A DNA stretch of 32,000 nt from Propionibacterium freudenreichii subsp. freudenreichii (GTDB lineage: Bacteria; Actinomycetota; Actinomycetes; Propionibacteriales; Propionibacteriaceae), in the NCBI RefSeq assembly GCF_000940845.1, contig NZ_CP010341.1:60001-92000 (forward strand), given 5' to 3'. Below the pieces are notes generated by a model, which worked only from the letters and a program-made list of their open reading frames with translations, searched no databases and was not told the origin of the DNA. The translations under genes were made by a program, and so were the position numbers. The first letter of the stretch is position 1, and each line of letters begins with the position of its first letter. Shown piece after piece: positions 5,447 to 28,099 of the stretch.

Positions 5447-5483
5447 CAATCTATCGGGCCGGCGGGCCAGCCTCGATAGACTG
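5447..5483. promoter_or_regulatory. AT-richer inverted repeat in the divergent rmlA / GT2 control region (candidate operator)
   Basis: CAATCTATCG (5447-5456) and CGATAGACTG (5474-5483) are reverse complements at 9 of 10 positions, separated by a 17-nt GC-rich spacer. The repeat lies in the 163-bp gap between the rmlA start (5352) and the GT2 start (5516). Confidence 0.35.
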
Positions 5484-5515
5484 GGGCGACGATGTCGCGC
5501 GACCGGAGGGTGGGG

Positions 5516-6684: not shown

Positions 6685-6822
6685 CCATGCGGCCCGGTAG
6701 CCACGCGTCGCATCCGGCAAGTGGGCCGGCTCGTCCCCGTCCCCCCGGCGCCGGTCGATAGGCTGGCCACCTGCCCGCCGACCGTATGCGGCAGGGTCTT
6801 CCCGGAGAGGTTGCGACGAGCG

Positions 6823-7704: not shown

Positions 7705-7714
7705 ACCGATACCC

Positions 7715-10428: not shown

Positions 10429-11693
10429 TCCCCGTGGTGGGTGGCAGCCCCGGTGCCCACGTCGTAGCGGGCACGCAGCACCCGCAGGGCGGGCAGCACG
10501 GTGGCCGCCATGATCACCGCCTCGCTCAGCGCGAGGCCGGCGGCGATCCCGGCCGCGCTGTGGTGCAATCCGGCGAACACCATCGCGATGATTCCGAAGA
10601 GCGCGGCAACCGACGTTGCCAGCAGGACCGTCCTCTGTCGTCCGTTGGGCACCAACAGGTTGCGCAGGAACGGCGTTGAGGCCGAAATGAACAGGAACGC
10701 CAGCGCGTACCAGGACGTGAGTGCGAAGCCGGCGGCGACCTGCGGGCCGAACAGCACCTGGGTGGCCCACGGTCCGAGCAGCGCGATGCCCACTGCGCCC
10801 AGGAGGCCCAGGAGCAGGTGCAGGGCGATGGCCGCGTGGTGGCGCCTGCGCCCGGACGCACCCTCCACCTCGAGGGTCCAGCCCTGCAGGGCATTCCCCA
10901 GGGCGGTCACGGCGAACAGCGCATAGCGGTAGAGCTGGTCGGCAGAGGCGAAGCGGCTCGAATCGATGCTGAGCAACAGCGCCGTGGCGATGGGCACCGG
11001 GGCATAGGCGTAGGCAACCCCGACGAGGCTGGCCGACGCGATCGACGTCATCGATCGGATCGAGCGCCATGCGTCCCCGAGGCTCACGGGTGAGGAGGGG
11101 GCGGTGGTGATCACGCGTCGTGGGAACAGCCACAGGGCGACCAGGATTGCGATGATCAGGAGCACGGGGTAGGCGATCATCGACCGCGTCCACAACATGA
11201 TCGGCACCGAGACGATGGTGCCGATCACCCGCGGCAGGGTGTCGTAGAGGCCGAGTAGCTTGGGCCGGCCCACCCCGATGCAGAACCACTGGGGCGACAG
11301 GGCCCCCATTGTGAATGCGCACGCCACGAGTGCCGCGGGGAGTCGGACGGAGGCCGGCGCGAGCAGCAGCGTGACCACCACGGTGGCCGGCAGCACGAAG
11401 GCCAGCATGAGCAGGCGGCTGTAGACGCTCTCGGTGTACAGGCGGGAGCGTTCGGCCTCGGAGGCCTGGGCCACCATGGCGGGCCCCACATAGCTCCAAC
11501 CCCAGGTGGCCAGGCTCATGCCGAATGTGCCGATGGACATGGCCGCGACAACGCCCGACCAGCCGTCGCCCACGAAGCGCGCGATGATCGGCGTCGCCAC
11601 CAACGGAGTGACCAGCGACAGCAGCGGCCAGCCGGTGAAGCCGGCGAGCCGACGCACCACCTCGGTGGCGGCGCCCGCGTTGTCACGATTCAC
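10416..11693 (-). CDS. Polytopic membrane protein, MOP/Wzx-like oligosaccharide flippase (tentative)
   Basis: 425 aa with a GTG start. About 12 hydrophobic segments run across the whole length, with short loops and no soluble domain, which matches Wzx-type flippases in size and layout. Its 3' end overlaps the convergent two-domain GT gene by 13 nt (10416-10428). Confidence 0.55.
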   Translation of the reverse strand: MNRDNAGAATEVVRRLAGFTGWPLLSLVTPLVATPIIARFVGDGWSGVVAAMSIGTFGMSLATWGWSYVGPAMVAQASEAERSRLYTESVYSRLLMLAFVLPATVVVTLLLAPASVRLPAALVACAFTMGALSPQWFCIGVGRPKLLGLYDTLPRVIGTIVSVPIMLWTRSMIAYPVLLIIAILVALWLFPRRVITTAPSSPVSLGDAWRSIRSMTSIASASLVGVAYAYAPVPIATALLLSIDSSRFASADQLYRYALFAVTALGNALQGWTLEVEGASGRRRHHAAIALHLLLGLLGAVGIALLGPWATQVLFGPQVAAGFALTSWYALAFLFISASTPFLRNLLVPNGRQRTVLLATSVAALFGIIAMVFAGLHHSAAGIAAGLALSEAVIMAATVLPALRVLRARYDVGTGAATHHGDQGR

Positions 11694-11889
11694 TCAGTCA
11701 CTCTTTCGGCTCGGGACGCGCCGCAGGTGTGCCCGTGTGGTGGTCATCGGGCGCCAACATGGCACTCGGGACGCGAATCGTCGTCACGTGTGCAGCGCGT
11801 GCGTTGACAATATCAGCGCGCCAGGATGCGGCACGCGGGCGCCTTCGTGGCCGGTGGGACAGCCCACGAGGCTGCGGCTGCGTCCCCGG

Positions 11890-11961
11890 CAGGGTGCCCT
11901 GCCTCTCCCACAGGGTGCCCTACTTCTCCCAGAGGGTGCCCTATTTCTCCCACAGGGTGAT
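11890..11961 (-). repeat. 21-bp tandem repeat (about 3.4 units) reiterating the last codons plus stop of the GT-C gene
   Basis: Minus strand reads ATC ACC CTG TGG GAG AAA TAG (11961-11941, gene end) | GGC ACC CTC TGG GAG AAG TAG (11940-11920) | GGC ACC CTG TGG GAG AGG CAG (11919-11899) | GGC ACC CTG CCG (11898-11887). Confidence 0.9.
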
Positions 11962-13472
11962 GGTGTGCCCCTGCGGCACGCCGCTCTTCGCGTAGACGCT
12001 GTGGTAGCCGAGCTCGGCGAGTTGGGAACCGTACACGGCGCGCCGGGTGTGCCAGGAGGCAACCCAGATGCGCGGGGGAAGCCATTCCTGGGCGGCCAGG
12101 TTGAGCTCCGGCGGGTCGTGCGCCCAGGCGAAGTCCAGGGGTGGCTTGGTCGGCTGGGCCAGGTCGATGAGCGTCGAGAAGGCGCCCGGATCCACCGAGA
12201 CCGCGCCGCGATAGGAGAAGACCCAGTCCTGGATCGGGTCGATCAGGAAGCCATCCCCGGCCCGGGCGGATTGCCGCATGACCCTGGACATCAGGTTGTA
12301 ATCGGTCCCCGAAGCCTTCGCATAGGTACGCTGCTGGAACCCGAACAGGGTGAGGGAGCCCACCATCAGGAGGATGACCAGGCCCCGTATCCAGCGTCGC
12401 TGCGCATGGATCGCCAATTCTGCAAGGGCCATGGCGAAGAAAGGTGCCACCGGCGTCAGATAGCGGCCCTGCAGCACATTGGTCCACACCAGGGAGGCGA
12501 TCCACAGGATGCCCACCCCGGTGGCGACCGGGACCAGGGCAAACGCCAGCCGGCGTAGGTGCCGGCCGCGGGACTCGACGACGACTGCGATCAGGAGGAT
12601 GGCGGCAACCACCGCCATAGCTGCGGCAATTGCATCGGGCACCCTGTCCGATATCTCCGGCACCGGAGGGGTTCGTGACGCGGCCCAGGACTGCACCAGG
12701 GCTGTCTCGATGAGGGAATACTTCTCGCTGGCCAACCATCCGATCTGGCCCAGTTGGCGTGAGGTCGCCACGCCGAACGGCGCGACCAACGCGGCGCTGA
12801 CGATCCCGGCGGCGGCGAGCATCCATCGTCGCCTGCCCTTGGTGAAGAACCAGGCGGCAGCAACCAGGCCAGCCATGGGAAGCGCCGCATACAGGTGCAC
12901 CAGCATCGCGGCCGCAATGGCCAGCACAAGGCCCACCCAACGCAGCCACGAGGGGCGCCGGCGATAGACCACCACGAGCAACAGTGCGAGCGCCGCGAAC
13001 ATCGACGACATCGCATAGGGCCGTGCTTCGATGGCCATGAGCAGTGTGCGGGGGAGCAGTCCGTAGGCGGCCGCATAGGCGAGTTGCCCCCGTCGGCCGA
13101 CCAGTCTTCGTCCCACGCCCGCCATCGCCATCGTGCCACACCGGCAGCGATCACGCTGGGCAGCCGCAGCGTGAAGGGCGTGATGCCGACCAGGTCGACC
13201 CACCAGTGCACCACCTCGTAATAGGCGGCATGGACCATGTCGGACCCGGACGGCAGCGTCGGAATGCCCTGCCACATGCTGGCCATGTCCCGGCTTGAAT
13301 AACTCACGACGTGTGCCGTGGCGACCTCGTCCAGCCACGGCGATACGCGCCAGGCGCCAACCAGAGTGAGAAGAACCACGACCAGCCCCAGGACCGCGTC
13401 GCCCCGCACACTCTGCGGCACGAGACGCTGCACCACTCCGATTCTCGTGGGCGATGCTTCGTTCCGGGGCAT
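11941..13472 (-). pseudogene. GT-C (GT39/PMT_2/ArnT-like) membrane glycosyltransferase, about 509 aa if joined; reading frame broken near 13130-13145
   Basis: The N-terminal 112 aa in the frame of ORF 12591-13472 look genuine (WRVSPWLDEVATAH...HAAYYEVVHWWVDLVGITPFTLRLPSVIAAGV, including the loop-1 DE motif and the RLPS motif typical of GT39/ArnT-like enzymes). The rest continues in the frame of ORF 11941-13338 (TMAMAGVGRRLVGRRGQLAYAAAYGLLP...). The offset again fits a 1-nt deletion. Confidence 0.65.
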
Positions 13473-13555
13473 GACGACAAGACTAGTTGTCGCAGCGGTA
13501 TATCAGTGGGCGGCGCGCAAGCGCATCACTCGCTCATGCCTGGCCTCGAAATGAT

Positions 13556-13567
13556 TCTGGTACCAGA
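13556..13567. promoter_or_regulatory. Perfect 12-bp palindrome TCTGGTACCAGA in the low-GC gap upstream of the GT-C gene (candidate operator)
   Basis: The palindrome is read directly from the sequence. It is flanked by ATGATTC (13551-13557) and TTGATTC (13580-13586). It lies in the 154-bp gap between the rmlCD stop (13627) and the GT-C start (13472). Confidence 0.3.
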
Positions 13568-13626
13568 TTGTTGGGGATATTGATTCGGATCTACCGCGAC
13601 TGGCAAACAGCCGTTCATATTCCCAA

Positions 13627-15087
13627 TCAATCAGGGCGGTTCACTGTCGGCTGTTGTCCGGACCCGTCCCGGCGCAACTGCGCCACATAGGCGTCCAGGC
13701 GCTCCTCCATGGAGGGCGGACGGAAGCCGGTGGCCTCGATGCGGGTGAGGTCCAGCGTGCTGTCGGCGGGGCGCGGTGCGGCGTCCTTGCCGGCGAAGTA
13801 CTCCGCCGTGCTGATCGGTGACACATCCTGCGGGTCGTGGCCGCTCAGGGCGAAGACGCGCTTGGCCACCGCGGCCCAGCTCAGCGGGGTGCCCTCGTTG
13901 GACAGGTTGTAGGTGCCCCAGGCGGCGCCGTGGCGCAGCAGGTGGATGATGCCGGCGGCCAGGTCGGTGGTGAAGGTGAGGCGTCCCACCTGGTCGTCCA
14001 CCACCTTGGGGGCGATGCCGCGCCCGGCCAGGTCAACCATGGTGCGCACGAAGTTCTTGCCCTCGCCCACCACCCAGCTGGTGCGCACCAGGTAATGCCT
14101 GGGCGTGGCGGCCACGGCGGCGTCGCCGCCGGCCTTCGACTGCCCGTAGACGCCCAGGGGGCTCGGCATCTCGTCCTCGCGATGCGGTGCCCGGGTGCCG
14201 TCAAAGGTGTATTCCGACGAGATGTGCACCAGCGTGAGCCCGTGCTCGGTGGCAACCCGGGCGAGGTTTGCCGGCCCGGTGGCGTTCGCGGCCCATGCCC
14301 GCGGCCTGCCCTGGGCGGTCTCGGCACCATCGACGTCGGTCCAGGCCGCCGCATTCACGATGACGTCGACGGTGCTCCAGTCGTAGGCGTCCACACTGGC
14401 CCGGTCGGCGATGTTGAGCTTGTCGAGGTCGACGCCCACCGGGAGGAAGCCGGCATCGGGCAGCTGCGCCATGAGCGCGCGTCCCAGCTGGCCGTGGGCA
14501 CCGGTCACCAGCACCCTCGGCATCGCCGGGGGGAAGGGCGTCACCGCGTCGAGGCGCGGATGGGCGCGGTCCTTGTCCGACAGGATCGCGTCGTCCAGCG
14601 CAATGGGCCAGTCGATGGCCACGGTCTCATCGGCCAGGTTGAGGAAGGTGTACTTCGCCTCGGGCGACCAGTGCGCATTCACCAGGTAGGTGTAGGCGGT
14701 GTTCGGCTCCAGCGTCTGGTAGGCGTTGCCCACGCCCCGCGGCACGTAGACGGCCACGCCGGGATCGATCTCGCAGGTGAACACGGTGCCGAAGCTGGGA
14801 CCCTCGCGCAGGTCCACCCAGGCGCCGAAGACGCGGCCGGTGGCCACCGAGATGAACTTGTCCCAGGGCTCGGCATGGATGCCGCGGGTGACGCCCACCT
14901 CATCGTTGAACGAGATGTTGTTCTGCACCGGGCCGAAGTCGGGCAGACCCAGCGCGGTCATCTTGGCGCGCTGCCAGTTCTCCTTGAACCAGCCCCGGTT
15001 GTCGCCGTGCACGGTGAGGTCGAACACCAGGAAGCCCGGAATCGGGGTGGTGGTGGCGGCCAGCTGCTTCTCGTGGTCAAGCGCCAT
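13627..15087 (-). CDS. rmlCD: Bifunctional dTDP-4-dehydrorhamnose 3,5-epimerase / dTDP-4-dehydrorhamnose reductase (RmlC-RmlD fusion)
   Basis: 486 aa from ATG 15087 (MALDHEKQ...), 4 nt after the rmlB stop. The N-terminal half is an RmlC cupin (HGDNRGWFKENW, GIHAEPWDKF). The C-terminal half is RmlD (VLVTGAHGQLG Rossmann motif, NAAAWTDVDGAE, YGQSKAGGD). The tracked ORF extension to 15297 is junk that overlaps rmlB. Confidence 0.9.
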   Translation of the reverse strand: MALDHEKQLAATTTPIPGFLVFDLTVHGDNRGWFKENWQRAKMTALGLPDFGPVQNNISFNDEVGVTRGIHAEPWDKFISVATGRVFGAWVDLREGPSFGTVFTCEIDPGVAVYVPRGVGNAYQTLEPNTAYTYLVNAHWSPEAKYTFLNLADETVAIDWPIALDDAILSDKDRAHPRLDAVTPFPPAMPRVLVTGAHGQLGRALMAQLPDAGFLPVGVDLDKLNIADRASVDAYDWSTVDVIVNAAAWTDVDGAETAQGRPRAWAANATGPANLARVATEHGLTLVHISSEYTFDGTRAPHREDEMPSPLGVYGQSKAGGDAAVAATPRHYLVRTSWVVGEGKNFVRTMVDLAGRGIAPKVVDDQVGRLTFTTDLAAGIIHLLRHGAAWGTYNLSNEGTPLSWAAVAKRVFALSGHDPQDVSPISTAEYFAGKDAAPRPADSTLDLTRIEATGFRPPSMEERLDAYVAQLRRDGSGQQPTVNRPD

Positions 15088-15091
15088 GGTG

Positions 15092-16099
<1,008 letters not shown>

Positions 16100-16220: not shown

Positions 16221-19200
16221 TCAGACGTCGTACTGATAGAGGTTGTAGCGATCCATGATCGAGATGATCTTGTTCGCATAGGTGGGATCGGTGGCATATC
16301 CGGCAGCCGCGATCGCCCGCACGAAGTCCCGATCATTGGTGGTCAGGAAGGCCGGGTAATAGCGGTTGGCCGAGTTGCTCGGATCGCCCAGGCTCAGGAA
16401 GAAGCCATGGTCGAGGAAGGAATCACCCGGGCTGTTGTAGCTGCGGAAGCCCGCCTGAATGGTGACATAACCGCCATTCACCCACTCGCTGGTCGAGTAC
16501 GAGGTGCACCCCGAGACGAAGGGGCTGCCGTAGGCAGGGCACTTGATGCCGAAGTAGTTGTTGTCCACTGCGGTCAAGCTGCTCTGGCCCCAGCCACTCT
16601 CGATGATCGACTGGGCAATCGACACGGCAGCCGGAACCCGATATCGGCGCTGCTCTTCCTGGGCGAACCCAGCAACCCATCGGATATAGCCGGCCTCGTC
16701 ACCCGCGGCTGGCTTGGAGCCGCCCGTATTGACCACATTGACCACGGTGCCACCGGAGTTCTTCCAGGCGATAGTGCCATTCTGGAAGGTCTGGATGGTG
16801 CCGTCGTCGGTGGGTGCCTCATCGCTGGTGGGGAAGCCTAGTGCGCCATCGGACGCACCCCAGGCGAAGTAGGTTGCTCCGACGGCGCCGCGCACCGCAT
16901 AGGCGTAGTTGTTCGGTCGCCAGTAGATGCGTCCGCCCTCGAAATCTTGGGAGACGCCGCCATTGATAGCGGCCTCGCCGGCACGGGGGAACTGAAGCAG
17001 GCCTGAGGATGCGCCAAGCTTGAGATACTCGTCAAGCATCGCGCCACGCACAGTGGCGTTCCCAAGGCCGTCCTTCCAGTAGATGCGCCCGCCTTGGAAC
17101 ACCTGGTAGCTCCCTCCGTCGGCGCTGATCTCGCTGCTTGTCGGCAGTCCGAGTAGTCCGGTTGACGCGCCTTGGTTGATGTAGGAGTCGCCGATGCCGC
17201 CGCGCACCATATGGCCACCAGTTGGGCCGCTCCAGTAGATGCGGCCGCCCTGGAACTGCTGGTACCAACCGTTGGGCAGGGTGATCTCGTTGCTCGTGGG
17301 CAATCCGAGTAGGCCGTAGGCTGAGTTGCCCATTGCTGTGAAGGTGTCGCCGATGCCTCCCTTGACCACATTGACCACGGTGCCACCGGAGTTCTTCCAG
17401 GCGATAGTGCCATTCTGGAAGCTCTGGATGGTGCCGTCAGCGGTTGGATTCTCATTGCTGGTGGCAAAGCCCAGCGCGCCGCTCGAACCACCCCATGCGT
17501 CATAGGTGGCTCCGATGGCGCCGCGCACCAGGTAGGCATAGCTGTTGGGATGCCAGTAGAGGCGTCCGCCCTCGAAGTCCTGTAGGGCGCCGCCAGCGAT
17601 GGCGACCTCTCCTCCCCGCGGGAAGGCGAGCAGGCCCGACGACGCATTCATGCTGAGGTAGGCGTCAAGCATCGCGCCGCGCACGGTGCCGCTTCCCAGT
17701 CCGTCCTTCCAGTAGATGCGACCACCCTGGAAGACCTGGTAACTCCCCCCGTCCGCACTGATCTCGCTGCTGGTAGGCAGGCCGAGCAGACCGGTTGAGG
17801 CACCCTGGTTGACATAGGAGTCCCCGATGCCGCCCCGCACCATATGACCACCGGTCGGACCGAACCAGTAGATGCGGCCGCCCTGGAACTGCTGGTACCA
17901 ACCGGCAGGCAGGGAGACCTCGTCGCCAGTGGGCAGGCCGAGCAGCCCATAGGCCGAGTCGCCCATTGCCGCGAAGGTGTCGCCGATTCCGCCCTTGATG
18001 GCGTGTCCGCCGGTGGCGCCGCTCCAATAGATGCGGCCGTTCTGGAACTGCTGCATCCATGCACCATTGCCGAGGCTGAGTTCACCACTGACGGGGGCGC
18101 CGAGGGTAGACAAGGCGGATTCCCCGAGCGCCGCGAAGGTGTCGCCAATGCCGCCCTTGACGAGAATGCCGGCAGTGGGATAGCTCCAGAAAATGCTTCC
18201 GTTCTGGAAGTGCTGGAACCAGCCATTGGAAAGAACCGTCTCGTCGCCGGTGGGCAGGCCGAGCAGCCCATAGGCCGAGTCGCCCATTGCCGCGAAGGTG
18301 TCGCCGATTCCGCCCTTGATGGCGTGTCCGCCGGTGGCGCCGCTCCAATAGATGCGGCCGTTCTGGAACTGCTGCATCCATGCACCATTGCCGAGATCAA
18401 CTTCGTCGCCGGTGGGCATGCCCATGGCACTTGGCGCGCTTGCCATGGCTGCGAAGGTGTCGCCGATGCCGTTATGCACGATGCGTGCACCGCTCGCCTG
18501 GCTCCAATAGATGAGTCCGCGCTGGAACTGCTGGTACTGGGAGCCATCGGCCAAAGTAGTTACCTGCCCAGAGGGCAGACCAAGACTTGCTGGCCCATCA
18601 GTGCCGAGGCTGGCATAGATCGCACCGATATTGCCATGGACAACGACTCCAGCGGTGGCATAACTCCAGAAGATGCTGCCCTTCTCAAACTGCTGTGCCC
18701 ATCCATTCGCAACCGCAGCCTCGTCGCTTGTGGGGAGTCCCAGATCAGCGAACGCGGAGGAACCCAGGGACGTGTAGGTGTCGTTGATCCCACCGTGGAC
18801 GATATGGGCTCCAGTGGTTGGCGACCAGAAGATGCGGCCGCTCTGGAAGCTCTGCATTACGCCACTTCGAACGGAGACTGGGTCAGCCGTGGGCAACCCG
18901 AGATAGCTGTATGCCGAATCCCCAAGTGCCGCATAGGCCGCTGCAATATCGCCGTTGGTGGCGTGTCCGCCAGTGGCTCCGCTCCAGAAGATGCGGCCGT
19001 TCTGGAACTGCTGCACCCACATGCCGTTGCCGAGATCCCTCTCGTCGCCCGTGGGCAGTCCGATATCGGTGAGCGCAGAATCACCCATCGCAAAGTAGAC
19101 ATCGCCGATGCCGCCCTTGATGGCATGCGCGCCGGTGGCCTGCGACCAATAGATGCGTCCGTTGGCGAACTGCTGCCAGGCGCCGCCCCCGCTGAGGGCA

Positions 19201-20255
19201 GTTTCTGACGAGGTGGCCGCACCAAGCACTCCGTTGGCACCGCCCAGCTGGTTGTACAGATCTCCGATCGCACCCGAAGTCGCGATCTGCGCAGATGGCG
19301 CCACCGCATCAGCGATGGCGCTGGTCGGGGCCTGGGTCGTCGGGGCCTGGGCGGTCGGTGACTGGGTTGTTGAGGGGGCTGCCGCCGAGGGGGTCGCTGG
19401 GCTTGCACTCGACGAGCTGGAGCTGTTCGCGGGGGTTGGCGTTGCCGGCGTCGACGCGCTCGTGGCCGCGGTGGTGGGCTGCGCGGTGCTCTTGGCCGAT
19501 GCCGTGTTGGCGGCTGATGAGTTGCTACTGGTCTTGGTGGTCGCATCCGCTGCGGAGTTGGCGCTCGTGGCCGTGGTTGCTGTCGACGTGGAAGCGGTTG
19601 CAGACGGCGCGCTCGACGCCGTCGCGGTTGCGGACGTGGTCTTGCCCAGGGCGGCGTACTTTGCCGCCACATCGCTGGTGACGACCTTTCCGCCGTCATT
19701 GGTCCAGTAGATGCCAGCGTTCTGGAACTGCTGGTACCAACCGTCAGGCAGCTTCACCTCATCGTAGGTGGGCAGACCGAGCTTGGTCAGCGCGGCATCG
19801 CCCAACGCGACATAGGTATCGCCGATGCCGCCCTTGATGGCATGCGCGCCGGTGGCCTGCGACCAGTAGATGCGTCCATGCTGGAACTGCTGCCAGACGC
19901 CACCACCGGTAAGGGGGGTCTCCGATGCAGTGGCCAGGCCGAGCTCGCCGTCGGCGCCATCCATGGCCGTGTAGAGATCGCCGATGGCACCCGAGACGGT
20001 GATGGTCTTTGGCGTGGTGGACGTCTCACTTGTGGCTAGGACAGGTGTCGCAGAGCTGCTGGAGCTGGTGGTGCCCGACGACGCAGAGGTGCTGGCCGAC
20101 GTTGCCGCCGGACTGGCAGGGGTCTCAGAGACGGTGTCGGCAGAGGCATGTGAGGGGGCTAGGGCGAGGGACAGGCCTACCGCTGGGATGGCTGCCAGAA
20201 TGAAACCGGCAGTGCGCGTATAGGGAATGCTCTTCTTAGAGGGCCCTGCTAGCAC
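16221..20255 (-). CDS. Secreted cell-wall hydrolase: signal peptide, S/T-rich linkers, about 18 LGFP repeats, C-terminal GH73 (mannosyl-glycoprotein endo-beta-N-acetylglucosaminidase) domain
   Basis: GTG at 20255 with GGAGGA 7 nt upstream. Signal peptide ...FILAAIPAVGLSLALAPSHASA/DT. There are 2 + 16 repeats of about 53 aa with the pattern G.IG..Y...G...G.LG.PT..E....GG..Q.F..GRIYWS..TG.H. An S/T/A/P low-complexity linker spans 19290-19643. The C-terminus carries VSIAQSIIESGWGQSSL...NNYFGIK...GFRSY (GH73 signature, about 16224-16700). The tracked ORF extension 20256-20669 overlaps glf and is rejected. Confidence 0.9.
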   Translation of the reverse strand: MLAGPSKKSIPYTRTAGFILAAIPAVGLSLALAPSHASADTVSETPASPAATSASTSASSGTTSSSSSATPVLATSETSTTPKTITVSGAIGDLYTAMDGADGELGLATASETPLTGGGVWQQFQHGRIYWSQATGAHAIKGGIGDTYVALGDAALTKLGLPTYDEVKLPDGWYQQFQNAGIYWTNDGGKVVTSDVAAKYAALGKTTSATATASSAPSATASTSTATTATSANSAADATTKTSSNSSAANTASAKSTAQPTTAATSASTPATPTPANSSSSSSASPATPSAAAPSTTQSPTAQAPTTQAPTSAIADAVAPSAQIATSGAIGDLYNQLGGANGVLGAATSSETALSGGGAWQQFANGRIYWSQATGAHAIKGGIGDVYFAMGDSALTDIGLPTGDERDLGNGMWVQQFQNGRIFWSGATGGHATNGDIAAAYAALGDSAYSYLGLPTADPVSVRSGVMQSFQSGRIFWSPTTGAHIVHGGINDTYTSLGSSAFADLGLPTSDEAAVANGWAQQFEKGSIFWSYATAGVVVHGNIGAIYASLGTDGPASLGLPSGQVTTLADGSQYQQFQRGLIYWSQASGARIVHNGIGDTFAAMASAPSAMGMPTGDEVDLGNGAWMQQFQNGRIYWSGATGGHAIKGGIGDTFAAMGDSAYGLLGLPTGDETVLSNGWFQHFQNGSIFWSYPTAGILVKGGIGDTFAALGESALSTLGAPVSGELSLGNGAWMQQFQNGRIYWSGATGGHAIKGGIGDTFAAMGDSAYGLLGLPTGDEVSLPAGWYQQFQGGRIYWFGPTGGHMVRGGIGDSYVNQGASTGLLGLPTSSEISADGGSYQVFQGGRIYWKDGLGSGTVRGAMLDAYLSMNASSGLLAFPRGGEVAIAGGALQDFEGGRLYWHPNSYAYLVRGAIGATYDAWGGSSGALGFATSNENPTADGTIQSFQNGTIAWKNSGGTVVNVVKGGIGDTFTAMGNSAYGLLGLPTSNEITLPNGWYQQFQGGRIYWSGPTGGHMVRGGIGDSYINQGASTGLLGLPTSSEISADGGSYQVFQGGRIYWKDGLGNATVRGAMLDEYLKLGASSGLLQFPRAGEAAINGGVSQDFEGGRIYWRPNNYAYAVRGAVGATYFAWGASDGALGFPTSDEAPTDDGTIQTFQNGTIAWKNSGGTVVNVVNTGGSKPAAGDEAGYIRWVAGFAQEEQRRYRVPAAVSIAQSIIESGWGQSSLTAVDNNYFGIKCPAYGSPFVSGCTSYSTSEWVNGGYVTIQAGFRSYNSPGDSFLDHGFFLSLGDPSNSANRYYPAFLTTNDRDFVRAIAAAGYATDPTYANKIISIMDRYNLYQYDV
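16731..17996 (-). repeat. Intragenic tandem duplication, period 633 bp (211 codons = 4 LGFP repeats)
   Basis: GACCACATTGACCACGGTGCCACCGGAGTTCTTCCAGGCGATAGTGCCATTCTGGAAG occurs at 16731 and again at 17364 (offset 633). The two encoded 211-aa modules (KGGIGDTF...GGTVVNVV) are roughly 80-85% identical by eye. Confidence 0.85.
17919..18395 (-). repeat. Two copies of a 156-bp segment (155/156 identical) at an offset of 321 bp (107 codons = 2 LGFP repeats)
   Basis: 17919-18074 and 18240-18395 were compared base by base. The single mismatch is A at 17928 versus G at 18249. Both encode ...DE.SLGNGAWMQQFQNGRIYWSGATGGHAIKGGIGDTFAAMGDSAYGLLGLPTGDE. Confidence 0.9.
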
Positions 20256-23744
<3,489 letters not shown>

Positions 23745-23748
23745 GCCT

Positions 23749-24633
23749 GTGAGTTCGTCTGATCTGGCGTCGCTGCCGTTGCATGCCCCCGGGCACTCCA
23801 ACGGCCTGCTCGACGTGCCGAAGTGGCACTTCCTCCTCAACCTGTTGGTGAAGAAGGAACTGCGCGTCCGCTACCGCGGCTCGGTGCTTGGCATGCTGTG
23901 GAGCTACGTCAAGCCGGCCGTGCAGCTGCTCGTCTACTACATGGCGATGGGTAAGTTCCTGCGCCTGTCGGCGTCGATGACCAACTACGTCATCTACCTG
24001 TTCGCCGGCATGGTGATGATCAACTTCTTCAATGAGGTGATGGGCAACACCACCCGCTCGATCGTCAACAATGCGCCACTGGTGGGCAAGATCTACCTGC
24101 CCCGCGAATTGTTCCCGGTGTCGAGCCTGTGGGTGGCGTTCGTGCACTTCGTGCCCCAGCTGGCCGTGTTGCTGCTGGGGGCGTTGATCGTCGGCTGGCG
24201 GCCCACGATGCTCAATGTGATGGCCGGACTGCTGTCGATCGCCATGGTCGCCATCTTCGCGCTGGGCCTGGGCCTGGCCTTTGCCGCGTGGAATGTGATG
24301 TTCCGCGACGCCGAGAACCTGGTTGACCTGATCGCCATGGTGGCCCTGTGGGTGTCGCCGGTGTTCTACAACTGGAGCATGGTGCAGTCGGTGGTGCCCG
24401 GCTGGCTGTGGAACATCTACCAGTGCAATCCGCTGGCGATGTCGGTGGAGCTGTCGCACTATGCGTTCTGGGTGCCCACCCGGGGCGTCACCGCCACCCG
24501 GTCGATGGCCGAGCTGATGCCACCGCACTGGGTGATGTGGTCGGGTGTGGCGCTGCTCATCTCGCTGATCATCCTGGTGCTGGGCCAGATGGTCTTCCGT
24601 GCCAACGAGGGCAAGTTTGCCCAGGAGCTGTGA
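23749..24633 (+). CDS. wzm: ABC-2 type polysaccharide export permease (Wzm-like)
   Basis: ELRVRYRGSVLGMLWSYVKPAVQLL entry motif and six hydrophobic helices. The GTG at 23749 has GAGGAA about 10 nt upstream. The longer TTG start at 23698 would overlap glfT2 by 47 nt. Confidence 0.85.
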   Translation: MSSSDLASLPLHAPGHSNGLLDVPKWHFLLNLLVKKELRVRYRGSVLGMLWSYVKPAVQLLVYYMAMGKFLRLSASMTNYVIYLFAGMVMINFFNEVMGNTTRSIVNNAPLVGKIYLPRELFPVSSLWVAFVHFVPQLAVLLLGALIVGWRPTMLNVMAGLLSIAMVAIFALGLGLAFAAWNVMFRDAENLVDLIAMVALWVSPVFYNWSMVQSVVPGWLWNIYQCNPLAMSVELSHYAFWVPTRGVTATRSMAELMPPHWVMWSGVALLISLIILVLGQMVFRANEGKFAQEL

Positions 24634-25403
24634 TGAGCGAGCCTGTTGAATCCACGGTGATGGTCGATCCCAACCTGGTGGTCGCGCGGCTGCGCGATGT
24701 GGACAAGCGCTTCACCCTGCACCACACGCACTCCATCAAGGAGTACTTGGTGTGGACGATGAAGGGCCGCAAGGGCGAGCTCTCGGAGAGCTTCCTGGCC
24801 CTCGACGACGTCAACCTCGACATCCACCAGGGCGAGTCGGTGGCGCTGCTGGGCTTCAACGGCTCGGGAAAGTCCACCTCACTGAAGCTGCTGTCGGGCG
24901 TCATGATGCCCGACAAGGGCGAGGTGGCCATTCGTGGCCGCATCGCCGGCCTGATCGAGGTGGGCGCCGGCTTCCATCCCGACCTCACCGGGCGTGAGAA
25001 CGTCTACCTCAACGGCGCGATCCTCGGCATGAGCGAGTCGGAGATCGACGAGAAGTTCCAGCGCATCGTCGACTTCAGCGAGATCGAGAAGTTCATCGAC
25101 ACCGAGGTGAAGTTCTACTCCTCGGGCATGTTCCTGCGCCTGGCCTTCGCGGTTGCCGCACACTCCGAGCCCGACATCTTCCTCATCGACGAGATCCTCA
25201 CGGTGGGCGACGAGCCGTTCCAGCGCAAGTGCATCGCCAAGATCAAGGAACTCAAGGCCGGCGGGCAGACACTTGTGGTGGTCAGCCACGACCTCGACAT
25301 GGTGCGCGGCATCTGCGATCGCGGCGTGGTGCTGGCGCAGGGCCGGGTGACCTTCGACGGCGACGTCGACGACGCGGTGGAGTTCCTGCGCAGCACCGAG
25401 TGA
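24633..25403 (+). CDS. wzt: Polysaccharide export ABC transporter ATP-binding protein (Wzt-like, NBD only)
   Basis: 256 aa from ATG 24633 (TGATG overlap with wzm). Walker A GFNGSGKST, signature YSSGMFLRLAF, Walker B DIFLIDE, H-loop VVSHD. There is no C-terminal extension. Confidence 0.9.
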   Translation: MSEPVESTVMVDPNLVVARLRDVDKRFTLHHTHSIKEYLVWTMKGRKGELSESFLALDDVNLDIHQGESVALLGFNGSGKSTSLKLLSGVMMPDKGEVAIRGRIAGLIEVGAGFHPDLTGRENVYLNGAILGMSESEIDEKFQRIVDFSEIEKFIDTEVKFYSSGMFLRLAFAVAAHSEPDIFLIDEILTVGDEPFQRKCIAKIKELKAGGQTLVVVSHDLDMVRGICDRGVVLAQGRVTFDGDVDDAVEFLRSTE

Positions 25404-25515: not shown

Positions 25516-27924
25516 CTACAGGCGGCCGGTGATGCGTCCCGCCGCGCGGCTCAGATAGCCGCGGGCCACTTGGTACTGGCGCTTGGCGAAGTTGAACCCG
25601 CCCCCGGCGCGCACCGCATGGTCGGTGGCGCGTAGCTGCACCTGCAGGTCGGCGATGAGCTGCTGCTGGGTGCCCAGGGCGTCCACCACCTCCTGGATCT
25701 TCTGCTCCAGGTGGTCGGTCTCGCGCTCCAGTTCCTTGCTGATGAACAGGGGCAGGCCCAGGCCGTTCTTGTCGGTCCATTCCTTGAGGGCCTTGTTGCG
25801 CAGCAACAGGTCGTACTCGGTGTGGTCGGAGCTGTTGGTGTACATCGAGTTGCCGGCCGTCCCCTCGGCGGGCTGCAGCGGACGATGGTGCCAGTTGGCC
25901 AGGGCGTGGTCGATGAAGCCCACCTCGCCGGCCTGTAGCAGGCGCAGGTGGAAGACGTAGTCGCCGATCACCGGATAGTCCTCGGCGTACAGCCCCACCC
26001 GGTCGTGCACGGCACGCCGGTAGACCAGGCAGATCGGCACGATGCGGTTGAGCTTCACGAAGTCGAGCAGGCGCATCGCATGCAGATCGGGCCACGACGG
26101 GAAGCGCTCATAGGTCACCCAGTCGGGGCCCACCTGCCGCTCCATCACGATCGTGGTGCGGGTGGCGACGGCCTCCTCGTCGGGATGGGCACGCAGGTGC
26201 GTGAGCGTCTCGAGCAGGAACCGCGGCTGCCAGCTGTCGTCGTCGTCGTGGATGTTGACGAATTCACTGTGCGAGTTGGCCAGCCCCACGTTGGAGGCGG
26301 CCTCCATGCCGTGCGACACGGGATTGTTCACCACGGTGAGTCGATCGCCGAGCTCGCTGCGGTAGCGGTCGAGTACGGACGCCACCTGGTCGGTGTCGCC
26401 GGCGTCGTTGACCACCACCAGCTGCCAGTCAGCCCAGGCCTGCTCCAGCACGTCCTGGACGGCGCGGTCGAGGAAGCCGGGGCGGTTCTGCGTGCGCATG
26501 ATCAACGCCACCGTGCGGTCGGCGCCGGCAGCCGGTGCATAGCGGAAGGGGGCAATCGCCGCGGCGACGTCGCCGGTGAAGCGGTCGACCTGGTCGAGCG
26601 CGGCGGGTCCGCCGAGCGGGGCGGCGCTGTCGGGGGTGGCAGCGTCGTGTGTGGCATCGCGGGGGGCCTCGGCCGGGTTGCTCGCGTCGGCGCGATCACT
26701 GTCATCGGCGGTGTCACTGGCCTCGTCGAGCACGGCAACCACCTGGTCCCACCAGCGGCTGGCGGCGTCCAGGCGCTCGGGGCGCACGGCCAGCGCGGCG
26801 CTGCGTTCGGCGTCGGCGCCGGCCACCAGGGCATCGAGCACCGCGTCGGCGACATCGGCACGCAGGGCACCGGTCGCCGGGTCCCACAGGGCCGCGAAGG
26901 GCACCGACGCGTTGCTGCGGCCCCAGTTCGCCAGGGCGCCATCGACGCGGCTGCGGGCATAGCGGCCGAGGGTGATCGGCAGCACCGGGGTGCCGGACAG
27001 CAGTCCGAAGACCACCGGATGGAAGCGGGTGGTGAGCGCCCATCGCGAGGCGGCCAGCCGGGTGGTGGCGTCAACCGCCTGTTCGATGGGCAGCAGCGTG
27101 GCCTGATGGCTCATCTGCGCGGCCACCAGCTTGTGGATGCGCACATCGCTGCGCGGACGGTCGGGATCGGCCATGTGCGGCACGAACTCCACCTCGGCGC
27201 CGGTGCGCTGCGCCAGGCCGTCGATCAGGGCAGCCATGATGGACACATAGTCGTGTTCGGCGAAGGGTTCGGCGTTGTCGCCGAGCGTGACGCTGATCCG
27301 GTTGGCCTTGGGATGGTCCCAGTCGGCGTCCAGCAGCACGGCGTCGTCGAGGGTCTGGAAGATCGCCGGATGCTCGGGGCACAGTTGCGTGGCCAGCCGA
27401 TAGCTGTCGGCGTCGCGCACGCCCACCAGCTGGCACAGCTCGAGCAGTTCTTTGAGTGCGGCGCGGTCGCTGAGCAGCAGGAAGGGCCCCAGGCTCTGCC
27501 CGCTGAGCACCACCGGGATGTCGAGGAAGGACGCCACCAGGGCGGTGGCCAGGCGCTCATAGACCAGCCAGCCGAAGTTGGAGTTGAGGCTGCCGCCGCC
27601 ACCGATCACCAGGGCGTCGACGCCGCGCAGCTGGTTCATGATCTTGAACAGCTTGTCCTTGGCAGGCAGGGCCACGTGGTTTCCCGACAGCACCTTGCGG
27701 ATCTCGGCCAGGTAGCGGTCGCGCTCGTCCAGCGGCCAGGGGAAGGTGAGTGCCGGGATCGACTCGGCGTGTGGCTGCCCGCCGGGTCCGTACTTCTCCT
27801 GACGCGAGATCATCACCACCTCGTGTCCGCGCTGCCGCAGCTGTGCCGCGCTGGCGATTCCGATGGCCTCGTCGCCGACGTGATAAACCGCCTGGTCAAC
27901 CTCGCACAGAAGCGCTACCCGCAT
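25516..27924 (-). CDS. Tri-domain protein: polysaccharide pyruvyltransferase-like domain + GT2 domain + C-terminal coiled coil
   Basis: 802 aa, with AAGGAG 6 nt before the ATG at 27924. aa 1-400: VYHVGDEAIG, DALVIGGGGSL, TTRFHPVVFGLLSGTPVLPI (CsaB/WcaK-like). aa ~470-690: ALIMRTQNRP, VVVNDAGD, NIHDDDDSW (GT2). aa ~728-768: ELERETDHLEQKIQEVVDALGTQQQLIADLQVQL (heptad-like). Confidence 0.85.
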   Translation of the reverse strand: MRVALLCEVDQAVYHVGDEAIGIASAAQLRQRGHEVVMISRQEKYGPGGQPHAESIPALTFPWPLDERDRYLAEIRKVLSGNHVALPAKDKLFKIMNQLRGVDALVIGGGGSLNSNFGWLVYERLATALVASFLDIPVVLSGQSLGPFLLLSDRAALKELLELCQLVGVRDADSYRLATQLCPEHPAIFQTLDDAVLLDADWDHPKANRISVTLGDNAEPFAEHDYVSIMAALIDGLAQRTGAEVEFVPHMADPDRPRSDVRIHKLVAAQMSHQATLLPIEQAVDATTRLAASRWALTTRFHPVVFGLLSGTPVLPITLGRYARSRVDGALANWGRSNASVPFAALWDPATGALRADVADAVLDALVAGADAERSAALAVRPERLDAASRWWDQVVAVLDEASDTADDSDRADASNPAEAPRDATHDAATPDSAAPLGGPAALDQVDRFTGDVAAAIAPFRYAPAAGADRTVALIMRTQNRPGFLDRAVQDVLEQAWADWQLVVVNDAGDTDQVASVLDRYRSELGDRLTVVNNPVSHGMEAASNVGLANSHSEFVNIHDDDDSWQPRFLLETLTHLRAHPDEEAVATRTTIVMERQVGPDWVTYERFPSWPDLHAMRLLDFVKLNRIVPICLVYRRAVHDRVGLYAEDYPVIGDYVFHLRLLQAGEVGFIDHALANWHHRPLQPAEGTAGNSMYTNSSDHTEYDLLLRNKALKEWTDKNGLGLPLFISKELERETDHLEQKIQEVVDALGTQQQLIADLQVQLRATDHAVRAGGGFNFAKRQYQVARGYLSRAAGRITGRL

Positions 27925-28099
27925 ACGAAGCTCCTTGATACCGGGACGTGTGGCCGGCCGGTACCCTCGCCACCACAGATCTTTTGGACGTTATCATGCG
28001 CGGCCGCACGATCCGGGCGCGCGAAACCGGCCCCCAGCGCGCCCACGGGCGCTGCGGCGAACAGGCGTCGCGCCTGCTCGCGCGACGGGCCGGCAGCTC

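What the first reader, a model, noticed from the sequence alone, without database searches (positions are those of the whole stretch)
16221..20255. Giant secreted murein hydrolase with about 18 LGFP repeats, back-to-back with the galactofuranan genes
The 1344-aa product has a Sec signal peptide, two S/T/A/P-rich linkers, and 2 + 16 copies of a ~53-aa LGFP-type repeat. It ends in a GH73 glucosaminidase domain (IIESGWGQS...NNYFGIK). LGFP repeats are known mainly from Corynebacteriales envelope proteins such as C. glutamicum PS1. There they are proposed to be cell-envelope anchors, but no ligand has been defined. Here an unusually long LGFP array is fused to a peptidoglycan hydrolase. The gene shares a 292-bp divergent control region with glf, inside a locus that builds a Galf/Rha wall polymer. 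The simplest hypothesis is that the LGFP array docks the hydrolase onto the polymer made by its neighbours. That would give an orphan binding module a concrete candidate ligand, and would couple autolysin targeting to wall-polymer synthesis.
Basis: partly seen in the sequence, partly recalled or inferred. Interest (0 to 1): 0.75.

Follow-up and report, generated by a model that had tools for sequence, protein, structure and literature searches.

The report
LspA: LGFP-repeat wall hydrolase beside galactan genes
The gene is real as described, but it is the already named surface protein LspA of the cheese bacterium Propionibacterium freudenreichii: a secreted cell-wall-cutting enzyme on a long wall-binding repeat array, sitting in a sugar-polymer gene cluster in a way that recurs in distant relatives, which makes the polymer a plausible but unproven docking site.

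Summary
Window 16221-20255 (-) encodes a 1344-aa protein with a Sec-type signal peptide, two S/T/A/P linkers, 2 + 16 LGFP repeats (Pfam E 8e-235) and a C-terminal GH73 domain with its catalytic Glu. It lies 292 bp from, and divergent to, glf-glfT2-wzm-wzt.

It is not a new protein. It is Large surface protein A (LspA) of Propionibacterium freudenreichii. LspA is published as a guanidine-extractable, non-covalently bound surface protein with a glucosaminidase domain. Its function is untested.

"No ligand defined" is partly outdated. The LGFP domain of C. glutamicum MytA has a crystal structure and pulls down peptidoglycan-arabinogalactan.

The docking hypothesis is plausible and gains comparative support:
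- LGFP-bearing wall enzymes of three catalytic types sit in galactan or arabinogalactan clusters in three actinobacterial orders.
- All 203 phages with LGFP matches (endolysins where listed) infect arabinogalactan-walled hosts.

It is not demonstrated. LGFP array alleles vary independently of the flanking glycosyltransferase sets, and peptidoglycan itself remains a viable ligand.

New here:
- LspA repeat number varies between strains (11-18 copies).
- A hypervariable array cassette sits in an otherwise ~96% identical locus.

Verdict: an uncharacterised member of a known kind, the repeat-targeted autolysin. Interest is moderate.

The parts
16221..20255 (-). lspA coding sequence (1344 aa plus stop), Large surface protein A of P. 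freudenreichii
   Evidence: ORF, GTG start and SD. Exact protein present in GCA_027945155.1 and GCA_900000125.1. Homologues are named 'Large surface protein A'.
20139..20255 (-). Sec-type signal peptide, aa 1-39 (MLAGPSKKSIPYTRTAGFILAAIPAVGLSLALAPSHASA|D)
   Evidence: Charge and hydropathy profile with an AXA site. Surface and secretome detection in the literature. SignalP was not run.
19998..20138 (-). S/T/A/P-rich linker 1 (aa 40-86, 81% STAP); candidate O-glycosylation region (inference)
   Evidence: Composition. By analogy, mycobacterial Ami3 is stabilised by Pmt mannosylation.
19680..19997 (-). N-terminal pair of LGFP repeats (aa 87-192)
   Evidence: Pfam LGFP and repeat HMM map. The pair is absent from the P0024/P0026 allele class.
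19281..19682 (-). Truncated repeat stub (aa 192-206) followed by S/T/A/P-rich linker 2 (aa 207-325, 87% STAP)
16740..19280 (-). Main array of 16 LGFP repeats (aa 326-1172), each a helix plus a 3-4-stranded sheet. This is the hypervariable, copy-number-variable cassette between strains.
   Evidence: (consensus v.GgIGDtY.a.G.Sa.g.LGlPT..E..l..G...QqFQ.GrIyWs..tG).
16740..17999 (-). Tandem duplication of a 4-repeat super-unit: aa 753-963 (17367-17999) against aa 964-1172 (16740-17366). 82% aa and 81% DNA identity.
16239..16667 (-). GH73 N-acetylglucosaminidase domain (aa 1197-1339). Catalytic Glu E1219 at 16599-16601; YATD at aa 1320.
20256..20547 (.). 292-bp divergent lspA-glf intergenic region. 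It holds a perfect 6-3-6 palindrome, TCAACC-CAC-GGTTGA, at 20344-20358 inside a block conserved between species.
   Evidence: No Rfam family and no sigma-70 consensus match.
20548..23744 (+). glf (20548-21735) and glfT2 homologue (21732-23744): the UDP-Galf supply and the galactofuran polymerase
   Evidence: TIGR00031 at 339 bits, above its cutoff of 304. Three GlfT2 Pfam domains. Full-length match to M. tuberculosis GlfT2 4FIX, E 3e-127.
23749..25403 (+). ABC-2 exporter pair Wzm (23749-24633) and Wzt (24633-25403)
   Evidence: The galactan-export Wzm/Wzt models are among the best NCBIfam hits but score below their cutoffs.
25516..29916 (-). Remainder of the conserved half of the locus: CsaB-like pyruvyltransferase-GT2 fusion (25516-27924), GT2 (28100-28957) and a GlfT1-like GT2 (28954-29916)
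   Evidence: Conserved at 94-98% DNA identity in most strains compared (83-88% in L017).
4483..16090 (.). rml side of the locus. It holds rmlB (15092-16090, -), the rmlC-rmlD fusion (13627-15087, -), two unassigned products of 510 aa (weak EamA hit) and 425 aa, four GT2 genes, DUF2304 and rmlA (4483-5352, -). Gene content varies between strains.
   Evidence: At least four gene sets are seen among strains.

Best explanation
LspA is a Sec-exported, non-covalently wall-bound autolysin. The C-terminal GH73 domain cuts the GlcNAc-MurNAc bond of peptidoglycan. The 2 + 16 LGFP repeats form an elongated, multivalent wall-binding module that holds and positions the enzyme in the wall.

The most likely ligand of the array is the peptidoglycan-linked galactofuranan-type polymer, or the peptidoglycan-polymer junction. 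That polymer is built by the conserved glf-glfT2-wzm-wzt half of the same locus. The many repeats would give avidity along a repeating chain, as choline-binding repeats do for pneumococcal LytB.

The likely role is septal splitting (daughter-cell separation) and wall remodelling coordinated with polymer insertion.

Shown: the domain architecture, an intact catalytic Glu, the fold, surface location with guanidine extractability (literature), and the gene context and its conservation.

Inferred: enzymatic specificity, the ligand, the physiological role, and glycosylation of the linkers.
For: Architecture and fold.

Surface location: LspA is a non-covalent, guanidine-extractable surface protein without SLH domains (PMC5893755, PMC5390290, PMC5902329).

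LGFP as a wall binder: the MytA LGFP domain binds peptidoglycan-arabinogalactan, as reported in PMC11299179. It aligns with LspA at E 1e-30 and by structure.

GH73 relatives: they carry interchangeable wall-binding modules (SH3, LysM), so LGFP occupies the cell-wall-binding slot. The nearest named relatives are GsmA, described by NCBIfam as a sporangiospore-maturation cell wall hydrolase.

Conserved synteny within Propionibacterium: lspA is divergent to glf-glfT2-wzm-wzt in all seven distinct P. freudenreichii loci examined and in another Propionibacterium lineage (loci L003 and L013) at 79% DNA identity.

Synteny in other orders:
- Modestobacter, Geodermatophilus and a related metagenome contig place [Rv3811_N-Amidase_2-LGFP] plus a giant LGFP-only protein between the LCP ligase and wzm-wzt-GT2-glfT2-glf.
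- A Corynebacteriales-type contig has Esterase+LGFP (MytA type) four genes from glfT2-ubiA.
- M. tuberculosis Ami3 is Rv3811, two locus tags from glf Rv3809c (plus established locus numbering).

Systematic test: of 105 metagenomic LGFP stretches, 5 contain glfT2 against 0.15-0.30 expected (Poisson P 5e-7 to 2e-5). 11 contain any galactan or AG-cluster marker, including 7 of the 30 stretches of at least 9 kb.

Phages: all 203 phage records with LGFP matches infect Gordonia, Rhodococcus, Mycobacterium, Nocardia or Tsukamurella, all arabinogalactan-walled hosts.
Against: There are no binding or enzymatic data for LspA.

LGFP array classes differ by about 45-58% identity between strains, while the galactan core genes stay about 96% identical. 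Array class assorts independently of the variable glycosyltransferase sets: L018 has a divergent array with a window-type GT set, and L017 has a window-like array with a different GT set. Any polymer ligand must therefore be the invariant part.

About three quarters of long LGFP loci have no galactan marker within about 6 kb. Specific counter-examples exist (L021, L008, L009).

Gene clustering of envelope functions and phylogenetic inertia could produce the synteny without ligand specificity.

AG-walled hosts also share A1-gamma meso-DAP peptidoglycan, which by my recollection P. freudenreichii also has. The host distribution therefore does not separate peptidoglycan from galactan as ligand.

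The chemical structure of the polymer made by this locus is not known. I found nothing on it in the held literature.
Confidence: 0.5

Rival explanations
1. The enzyme is the same, but the LGFP array binds peptidoglycan itself (glycan strands or the directly cross-linked meso-DAP stem peptide). The position next to glf reflects only the general clustering and ancient synteny of envelope genes.
For: The MytA pull-down used peptidoglycan-arabinogalactan complexes, so peptidoglycan is not excluded. LGFP sits in the slot that peptidoglycan-binding LysM and SH3 modules occupy in related GH73 enzymes. Array alleles vary freely while the flanking glycosyltransferase sets do not track them. Most LGFP loci are not near galactan genes. 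AG-walled phage hosts share one peptidoglycan chemotype (knowledge).
Against: LGFP genes are enriched in galactan and AG clusters across three orders and three catalytic types. At this sensitivity there are no LGFP matches in phages of hosts outside Corynebacteriales; from my knowledge of the collection, not counted here, it holds many phages of Arthrobacter, Microbacterium, Streptomyces and Cutibacterium.
Confidence: 0.3
2. The long LGFP array is mainly a rigid spacer or an adhesin. It projects the protein beyond the wall and mediates cell-cell clumping or interaction with hosts or phages. Wall attachment and hydrolysis are secondary.
For: Strain JS22, which displays LspA, clumps in a salt-reversible way, and the authors call LspA an adhesin (PMC5902329). 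The array is a hypervariable, copy-number-variable cassette in an otherwise ~96% identical locus, as is typical of exposed surface antigens or phage receptors. MytA LGFP repeats form a stalk-like extension.
Against: The core residues of the repeat are conserved in all allele classes. The GH73 domain is intact and 87-100% conserved among strains. LspA was not linked to immunomodulation in the multi-strain study. The clumping link is only correlative.
Confidence: 0.13
3. The GH73 domain acts on the GlcNAc-containing linkage unit or on the polymer itself rather than on peptidoglycan. LspA would then trim or release the neighbouring wall polysaccharide.
For: Only the gene context. GH73 enzymes cleave after GlcNAc.
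Against: Every solved GH73 structure matched here (AtlA, Auto, FlgJ, LytB) is deposited as a peptidoglycan hydrolase or endo-beta-N-acetylglucosaminidase, and these are characterised peptidoglycan-degrading enzymes. The active-site motifs are the canonical ones.
Confidence: 0.04

Closest known systems
C. glutamicum mycoloyltransferase A / PS1 (MytA), C-terminal LGFP domain (PDB 6SX4, 6SWZ)
   Same: Same repeat family and fold: phmmer E 1e-30 and Foldseek E 7e-20 with rmsd 3.6 A over 267 columns. It is a wall-associated secreted enzyme, and its LGFP module is reported to bind peptidoglycan-arabinogalactan. MytA-type genes also lie near glfT2/ubiA.
   Different: MytA has 5 repeats, not 18. Its catalytic domain is an N-terminal esterase, not a C-terminal GH73. 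Its host has a mycolate outer membrane and arabinan, which P. freudenreichii is not predicted to have: no ubiA or dprE genes are in this window.
Mycobacterial Ami3 (Rv3811) and Geodermatophilaceae [Rv3811_N-Amidase_2-LGFP] amidases
   Same: These are peptidoglycan hydrolases fused to LGFP repeats and encoded beside glf/glfT2/wzm/wzt. Ami3 is O-mannosylated, paralleling the S/T-rich linkers of LspA. A metagenomic protein (P0034) combines Rv3811_N, Amidase_2, LGFP and a GH73 that is 51% identical to that of LspA.
   Different: The catalytic domain is an amidase rather than a glucosaminidase. LGFP follows the catalytic domain rather than preceding it. I did not verify the LGFP content of Rv3811 itself on its sequence; it is inferred from the Pfam family name and from the index of PMC2447325.
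Streptococcus pneumoniae LytB
   Same: By my recollection it has the same logic and almost the same numbers: a long array of wall-polymer-binding repeats (about 18 choline-binding repeats) followed by a C-terminal GH73 glucosaminidase, non-covalently bound and acting in daughter-cell separation. The GH73 domains match (PDB 4Q2W and 7PJ3).
   Different: The repeat family is unrelated (choline-binding, with a phosphocholine teichoic acid ligand). The LytB catalytic module has extra domains. The LspA ligand is undefined.
Enterococcus faecalis AtlA and Listeria Auto (GH73 autolysins)
   Same: They are the best structural matches for the catalytic domain (7QFU target TM 0.85; 3FI7), with the catalytic Glu aligned. 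They share the modular layout of a catalytic domain plus repeated wall-binding modules. By my recollection AtlA also has a glycosylated S/T-rich N-terminal region.
   Different: Wall binding is by LysM (AtlA) or GW (Auto) modules placed C-terminal to the enzyme. About 30% sequence identity.
GsmA-type GH73 hydrolases of Actinoplanes and relatives
   Same: They are the closest named sequence relatives of the LspA GH73 domain outside Propionibacterium (about 45-52% identity; NCBIfam NF038016 185 bits). NCBIfam describes GsmA as a sporangiospore maturation cell wall hydrolase.
   Different: The NCBIfam score is below the equivalog cutoff of 240. The listed named GsmA relatives show GH73 alone in Pfam, and other close GH73 relatives carry SH3 or LysM partner domains; all are about 190-300 aa and none has LGFP.
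Actinobacteriophage LysA endolysins with LGFP
   Same: LGFP serves as the presumed cell-wall-binding domain of a peptidoglycan hydrolase. Matches occur in 203 phage records.
   Different: They have 2-4 repeats. All hosts are Corynebacteriales, and none is a P. freudenreichii phage. They work in lysis from within rather than housekeeping.

Membership tests
LGFP repeat proteins (Pfam PF08310) | Tandem ~53-54-aa repeats scoring above the Pfam gathering threshold | tested here: met
   18 stretches, 759.9 bits against a cutoff of 22, E 7.8e-235. Own HMM map.
LGFP repeat proteins (Pfam PF08310) | Repeat fold of an N-terminal helix plus a 3-4-stranded antiparallel sheet, stacked as in MytA | tested here: met
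   AF2 model with pLDDT 82.6 and a helix/strand pattern per repeat. Foldseek match to 6SX4 at E 7e-20, rmsd 3.6 A.
LGFP repeat proteins (Pfam PF08310) | Binding to the cell wall (peptidoglycan-arabinogalactan in MytA) | not testable with these tools
   Indirect only: LspA is guanidine-extractable from cells and has no SLH or LPXTG. The ligand is unknown.
GH73 peptidoglycan N-acetylglucosaminidases (PF01832) | Domain HMM above the gathering threshold | tested here: met
   114.3 bits against a cutoff of 30.2, aa 1197-1339.
GH73 peptidoglycan N-acetylglucosaminidases (PF01832) | Catalytic general-acid Glu in the E-S/T-x-W-G motif, plus the YATD motif | tested here: met
   IIESGWG (E1219) aligns with ALESNWG of Auto and IVESGWG of AtlA. 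YATDPTY is present.
GH73 peptidoglycan N-acetylglucosaminidases (PF01832) | Hydrolysis of the GlcNAc-beta-1,4-MurNAc bond | not testable with these tools
   Needs a zymogram or muropeptide analysis.
GsmA equivalog (NCBIfam NF038016) | Whole-protein score at or above the curated cutoff (240 bits) | tested here: not met
   185.3 bits, covering only the C-terminal 178 model positions. LspA is related to GsmA but is not an equivalog.
LspA (Large surface protein A) of P. freudenreichii | Sequence identity and shared locus with proteins so named | tested here: met
   Homologues named 'Large surface protein A' share 54-89% identity in the best local alignment and the same LGFP + GH73 architecture. 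Unnamed or otherwise named P. freudenreichii orthologues (P0001, P0006, P0015, P0018) reach 95-100%. GH73 is 87-100% identical across alleles. All lie at the same glf-divergent position.
SLH-anchored surface proteins of P. freudenreichii (SlpA/B/E, InlA) | C-terminal SLH domains | tested here: not met
   No SLH Pfam hit at E <= 0.01. The literature agrees.
Sortase-anchored (LPXTG) surface proteins | C-terminal LPXTG motif, hydrophobic segment and charged tail | tested here: not met
   The protein ends ...IMDRYNLYQYDV, inside the GH73 domain.
Secondary-wall-polymer-targeted autolysins (LytB/Atl type) | A peptidoglycan hydrolase domain fused to a repeat array | tested here: met
Secondary-wall-polymer-targeted autolysins (LytB/Atl type) | The repeat array binds a non-peptidoglycan wall polymer | not testable with these tools
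   Only comparative support: synteny in three orders, enrichment of glfT2 near LGFP genes, and phage host range.
Mycobacterial-type galactan machinery (neighbouring genes) | Glf equivalog and a full-length three-domain GlfT2 | tested here: met
   TIGR00031 at 339 bits, above its cutoff of 304. Glft2_N + GT2 + GlfT2_domain3. 4FIX E 3e-127 over residues 29-652.
Mycobacterial-type galactan machinery (neighbouring genes) | GlfT1 and galactan Wzm/Wzt equivalogs | tested here: inconclusive
   These are top or near-top NCBIfam hits but far below their cutoffs: GlfT1 82 against 330, Wzt 159 against 400, Wzm 39 against 380.

The most novel reading that the evidence does not exclude
LGFP is a lectin-like module specific for the galactofuran (or linkage-unit) part of peptidoglycan-attached polymers. 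LGFP-bearing wall enzymes (GH73 in Propionibacterium, Amidase_2 in Geodermatophilaceae and mycobacteria, mycoloyltransferase in Corynebacteriales) together with glf-glfT2-wzm-wzt would then form an ancient, co-inherited module that couples peptidoglycan cleavage or envelope assembly to galactan insertion. P. freudenreichii, a food-grade organism without mycolates or arabinan, would be the simplest system in which to define the ligand.
Probability: 0.35. Interest if true: 0.7.

Novelty: new member of a known kind. Interest (0 to 1): 0.45.

Why it matters
LGFP repeats decorate many envelope enzymes of Mycobacterium, Corynebacterium and relatives, including Ami3 and mycoloyltransferases, and the matching phage proteins (endolysins/lysin A in 39 of the 40 records listed). 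Their exact ligand is still undefined. If the ligand is the galactan backbone or linkage unit, that would explain how these enzymes are positioned in the arabinogalactan layer.

P. freudenreichii LspA would offer a tractable model: a single LGFP protein, a galactan-type locus without arabinan or mycolate, and natural alleles with 11-18 repeats.

For P. freudenreichii itself, LspA is a strain-variable surface protein in a probiotic and cheese starter. Its hypervariable array may bear on clumping, phage sensitivity and surface properties.

Tried and rejected
(1) Co-variation test. I asked whether divergent LGFP array classes track the strain-specific glycosyltransferase sets downstream of lspA. 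They do not. L018 has a divergent array with a window-type GT set at 96% DNA identity. L017 has a window-like array with a different GT set. I therefore dropped the idea that the array is tuned to the variable part of the polymer.

(2) Riboswitch or leader in the 292-bp region, for example the c-di-AMP/ydaO type common upstream of actinobacterial wall hydrolases. There is no Rfam hit at gathering threshold or at E <= 1. There is no sigma-70 consensus promoter and no terminator after lspA.

(3) A systematic locus survey with the search for related loci on LGFP alignments A3 and A4. I replaced it with a degenerate DNA pattern scan.

(4) Reading the primary MytA LGFP paper (doi 10.1111/mmi.14492) and the full text of the LGFP-defining paper (PMC2447325). 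Neither is held, so those claims are second-hand.

(5) Literature on a P. freudenreichii galactofuranan or wall polysaccharide structure. Nothing relevant was found.

(6) The first genome-contig scan used the GH73 end of the protein and returned only one close relative. The two mycobacterial LGFP loci it brought in have no glf or glfT2 within 10 kb.

(7) The 'LRR-containing protein' label given to LspA in PMC5902329. No LRR family appears in Pfam at E <= 0.01.

Full report
**1. What is there**

The ORF on the minus strand runs from 20669 to 16221. The GTG at 20255 is preceded by AGGAGG about 9 nt upstream, and this start region is conserved in other strains and another species. It gives a 1344-aa product.

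Pfam finds 18 LGFP stretches (E 7.8e-235) and a Glucosaminidase/GH73 domain at aa 1197-1339 (E 7.3e-33). An HMM built from the repeats themselves maps the following:
- two repeats at aa 87-192
- a truncated repeat stub at aa 192-206
- a 119-aa linker that is 87% S/T/A/P
- sixteen contiguous repeats at aa 326-1172

The first 39 residues have a basic n-region, a hydrophobic core and an ASA|D site. A 47-aa linker that is 81% S/T/A/P follows.

Repeats 11-14 and 15-18 are a tandem duplication of a four-repeat super-unit, with 82% aa and 81% DNA identity. TRF sees the 159-162-bp period.

The GH73 catalytic Glu (E1219, in IIESGWG) aligns with the catalytic motif of Listeria Auto and E. faecalis AtlA. 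The YATD motif is present.

An AlphaFold model of aa 910-1344 (pLDDT 82.6) shows each repeat as a helix plus a 3-4-stranded sheet. It matches the MytA LGFP domain (6SX4, E 7e-20) and the AtlA GH73 domain (7QFU, target TM 0.85).

**2. Identity**

The exact protein is encoded in two Propionibacterium freudenreichii assemblies. Its homologues carry the name 'Large surface protein A'.

In the literature LspA is one of five guanidine-extractable, non-covalently bound surface proteins of P. freudenreichii. It has no SLH domain, and its glucosaminidase domain is noted. It has been detected on the surface or in the secretome of several strains, and it was not implicated in immunomodulation (PMC5893755, PMC5390290, PMC5902329, PMC12191393). 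None of the passages retrieved from these papers mentions the LGFP array (a term search in PMC5902329 found none), and that paper calls LspA an LRR protein, which Pfam does not support. Its function has not been tested.

**3. Context**

lspA lies 292 bp from glf, in divergent orientation.

On the glf side the genes are:
- glf, which passes its NCBIfam equivalog cutoff
- a full-length GlfT2 homologue (three GlfT2 Pfam domains; 4FIX E 3e-127)
- an ABC-2 Wzm/Wzt pair
- a CsaB-like pyruvyltransferase fused to a GT2
- a GT2
- a GlfT1-like GT2

On the other side are rmlB, an rmlC-rmlD fusion, two unassigned products of 510 aa (weak EamA hit) and 425 aa, four GT2 genes, DUF2304 and rmlA.

Comparison of seven strain loci shows that the glf side is conserved at 94-98% DNA identity in most strains, and 83-88% in L017. 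The rml side exists in at least four gene sets, some with IS elements.

**4. Variation of lspA itself**

Among P. freudenreichii proteins the array has 2+11 to 2+16 repeats, or a single array of 11-12 repeats. Blocks that are 100% identical are present or absent, which indicates copy-number change. The window carries the longest allele.

There are three array classes:
- In the P0023 class, the signal peptide and N-terminal pair are identical to the window and GH73 is 95% identical, but the array is only about 45% identical.
- In the P0024/P0026 class, the array is 44-58% identical and GH73 87-90% identical.
- The third class is the window type.

In L018 the flanks are about 96% identical to the window on both sides, while the array region has essentially no DNA similarity. 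The fold-defining residues are the same in all classes. The array is therefore a hypervariable cassette.

Array class does not track the rml-side gene set (L018 and L017). If the array binds a product of this locus, it must be the invariant part.

**5. Is LGFP linked to galactan elsewhere?**

(a) As reported in PMC11299179, MytA LGFP repeats have a crystal structure and pull down peptidoglycan-arabinogalactan. LspA aligns to them at E 1e-30.

(b) A tblastn search of eight LspA repeats against 50,697 phage records finds 203 phages. The matches lie in endolysin/lysin A genes in 39 of the 40 records listed. All 203 phages infect Gordonia, Rhodococcus, Mycobacterium, Nocardia or Tsukamurella. These hosts all have arabinogalactan walls.

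(c) Gene contexts of unrelated LGFP proteins point the same way:
- A Geodermatophilaceae-like metagenome contig and Modestobacter roseus carry LCP ligase, then [Rv3811_N-Amidase_2-LGFP], a small ORF, a roughly 1,100-aa LGFP-only protein, and then wzm-wzt-GT2-glfT2-glf. In Modestobacter, ubiA and dprE1/E2-like genes lie just upstream.
- Geodermatophilus bullaregiensis has the same core with rmlB/rmlD and DUF6541.
- A metagenomic protein combines Rv3811_N, Amidase_2, LGFP and a GH73 51% identical to that of LspA, inside a wzm/wzt-rmlB-GT2 locus.
- The Pfam name refers to M. tuberculosis Rv3811, which is Ami3. By locus numbering it lies two genes from glf (Rv3809c) and glfT2 (Rv3808c). That last point is established knowledge, not re-verified here.

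(d) A degenerate DNA pattern for the F-Q-x-G-x-[IV]-Y-W-[ST] motif returned 120 metagenomic stretches, of which 105 carry LGFP repeats.
- 5 contain glfT2, against 0.15-0.30 expected by chance (Poisson P 5e-7 to 2e-5, uncorrected for relatedness).
- 11 contain some galactan or AG-cluster marker, including 7 of the 30 stretches of at least 9 kb.
- One of these, L039, reads glfT2, ubiA, an AftB-sized ORF, an esterase, esterase+LGFP (MytA type) and a cutinase, which is the Corynebacteriales AG/mycolate cluster.

LGFP enzymes of three catalytic types therefore sit in galactan clusters in three orders. Most LGFP loci, however, show no such neighbour, and explicit counter-examples exist (L021, L008, L009).

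**6. Mechanism**

The best-supported reading is a Sec-exported, non-covalently wall-bound GH73 autolysin whose LGFP arrays are its wall-targeting module.

The closest GH73 relatives outside the genus are GsmA-type hydrolases and proteins that carry SH3 or LysM in place of LGFP. NCBIfam describes GsmA as a sporangiospore maturation cell wall hydrolase. LGFP thus occupies the interchangeable cell-wall-binding slot. The design parallels pneumococcal LytB, which by my recollection has about 18 choline-binding repeats plus GH73, docks on teichoic acid and acts in daughter-cell separation. Its catalytic domain is among the matches.

I put about 0.85 on 'wall-bound GH73 autolysin targeted by LGFP'. 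I put about 0.45 on the ligand being the galactofuranan-type polymer or its junction with peptidoglycan. The main rival is peptidoglycan itself, at about 0.3.

**7. Comparison and novelty**

The object is a named protein with a database-visible architecture, and the kind (a repeat-targeted modular autolysin) is well known. LGFP-hydrolase fusions are common.

What is not in the literature I could read:
- recognition that LspA's bulk is an LGFP array
- its copy-number and cassette polymorphism
- the cross-order association of LGFP enzymes with glf/glfT2 clusters

**8. Verdict**

It is a new, functionally uncharacterised member of a known kind. Interest is 0.45.

Noticed in passing
window 25516-27924 (-): A CsaB-like polysaccharide pyruvyltransferase is fused to a GT2 in the conserved half of the locus (PF04230 E 1e-31; TIGR03609 best hit, below cutoff). 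P. freudenreichii anchors SlpA/B/E and InlA by SLH domains, which in other bacteria bind pyruvylated wall polymers. This locus may therefore make the SLH ligand. In strain locus L016 the fusion is split into 473-aa and 327-aa ORFs.
   Followed up: partly
window 16740-19280 (-), compared with L018, L015 and L011: The LGFP array is a hypervariable cassette. In L018 both flanks are about 96% identical to the window while the array region shows almost no DNA similarity. Copy number ranges from 11 to 18 repeats among strains. The cause (phage pressure, host interaction or repeat turnover) is unexplained.
   Followed up: partly
window 4483-13500, compared with L011, L012, L015 and L017: The rml side of the locus exists in at least four gene sets among strains. 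One set has DUF2142, others have different GT2 genes, and some have IS elements of the rve or ISL3 type. This resembles the conserved-core plus variable-part organisation of lactococcal rhamnose wall-polysaccharide loci.
   Followed up: partly
window 20344-20358: A perfect 6-3-6 palindrome, TCAACC-CAC-GGTTGA, is centred about 96 nt upstream of the lspA start. It lies inside the only intergenic block conserved between P. freudenreichii alleles and another Propionibacterium species. It is a candidate operator; no regulator has been identified.
   Followed up: partly
P0001, P0004, P0005, P0015, P0018-P0020: Many database entries for LspA orthologues start at an internal ATG (MDGADGELG...). This is 97 codons downstream of the SD-preceded GTG and drops the signal peptide and first linker. 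It is probably a start-codon mis-annotation.
   Followed up: partly
window 2337-4427 (-); L024 19405-21414: A DUF6541 membrane protein (E 4e-162) lies at the edge of this locus and recurs inside the Geodermatophilus LGFP/wzm/wzt cluster. It is probably part of the polymer assembly machinery.
   Followed up: no
L023 (Modestobacter roseus) 4438-22978: A non-mycolate actinobacterium carries PAP2-ubiA-dprE1-like-dprE2-like genes next to LCP, two LGFP proteins, wzm-wzt, a GT2, glfT2 and glf. This suggests an arabinogalactan-like polymer outside Mycobacteriales, with giant LGFP-only proteins (about 1,085 aa) of unknown function.
   Followed up: partly
window 13627-15087 (-): RmlC (dTDP-4-dehydrorhamnose 3,5-epimerase) and RmlD (reductase) are fused in one 486-aa product. 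The fusion is conserved among strains.
   Followed up: no
L049 6700-12044 (-): A metagenomic contig encodes an FG-GAP + LGFP(6) protein next to an LGFP(10) protein and a wzm/wzt pair. This is another LGFP partner domain.
   Followed up: no
PMC5902329: A secretome paper describes LspA as 'a LRR containing protein'. No LRR family appears in the Pfam scan at E <= 0.01, and the repeats are LGFP.
   Followed up: yes
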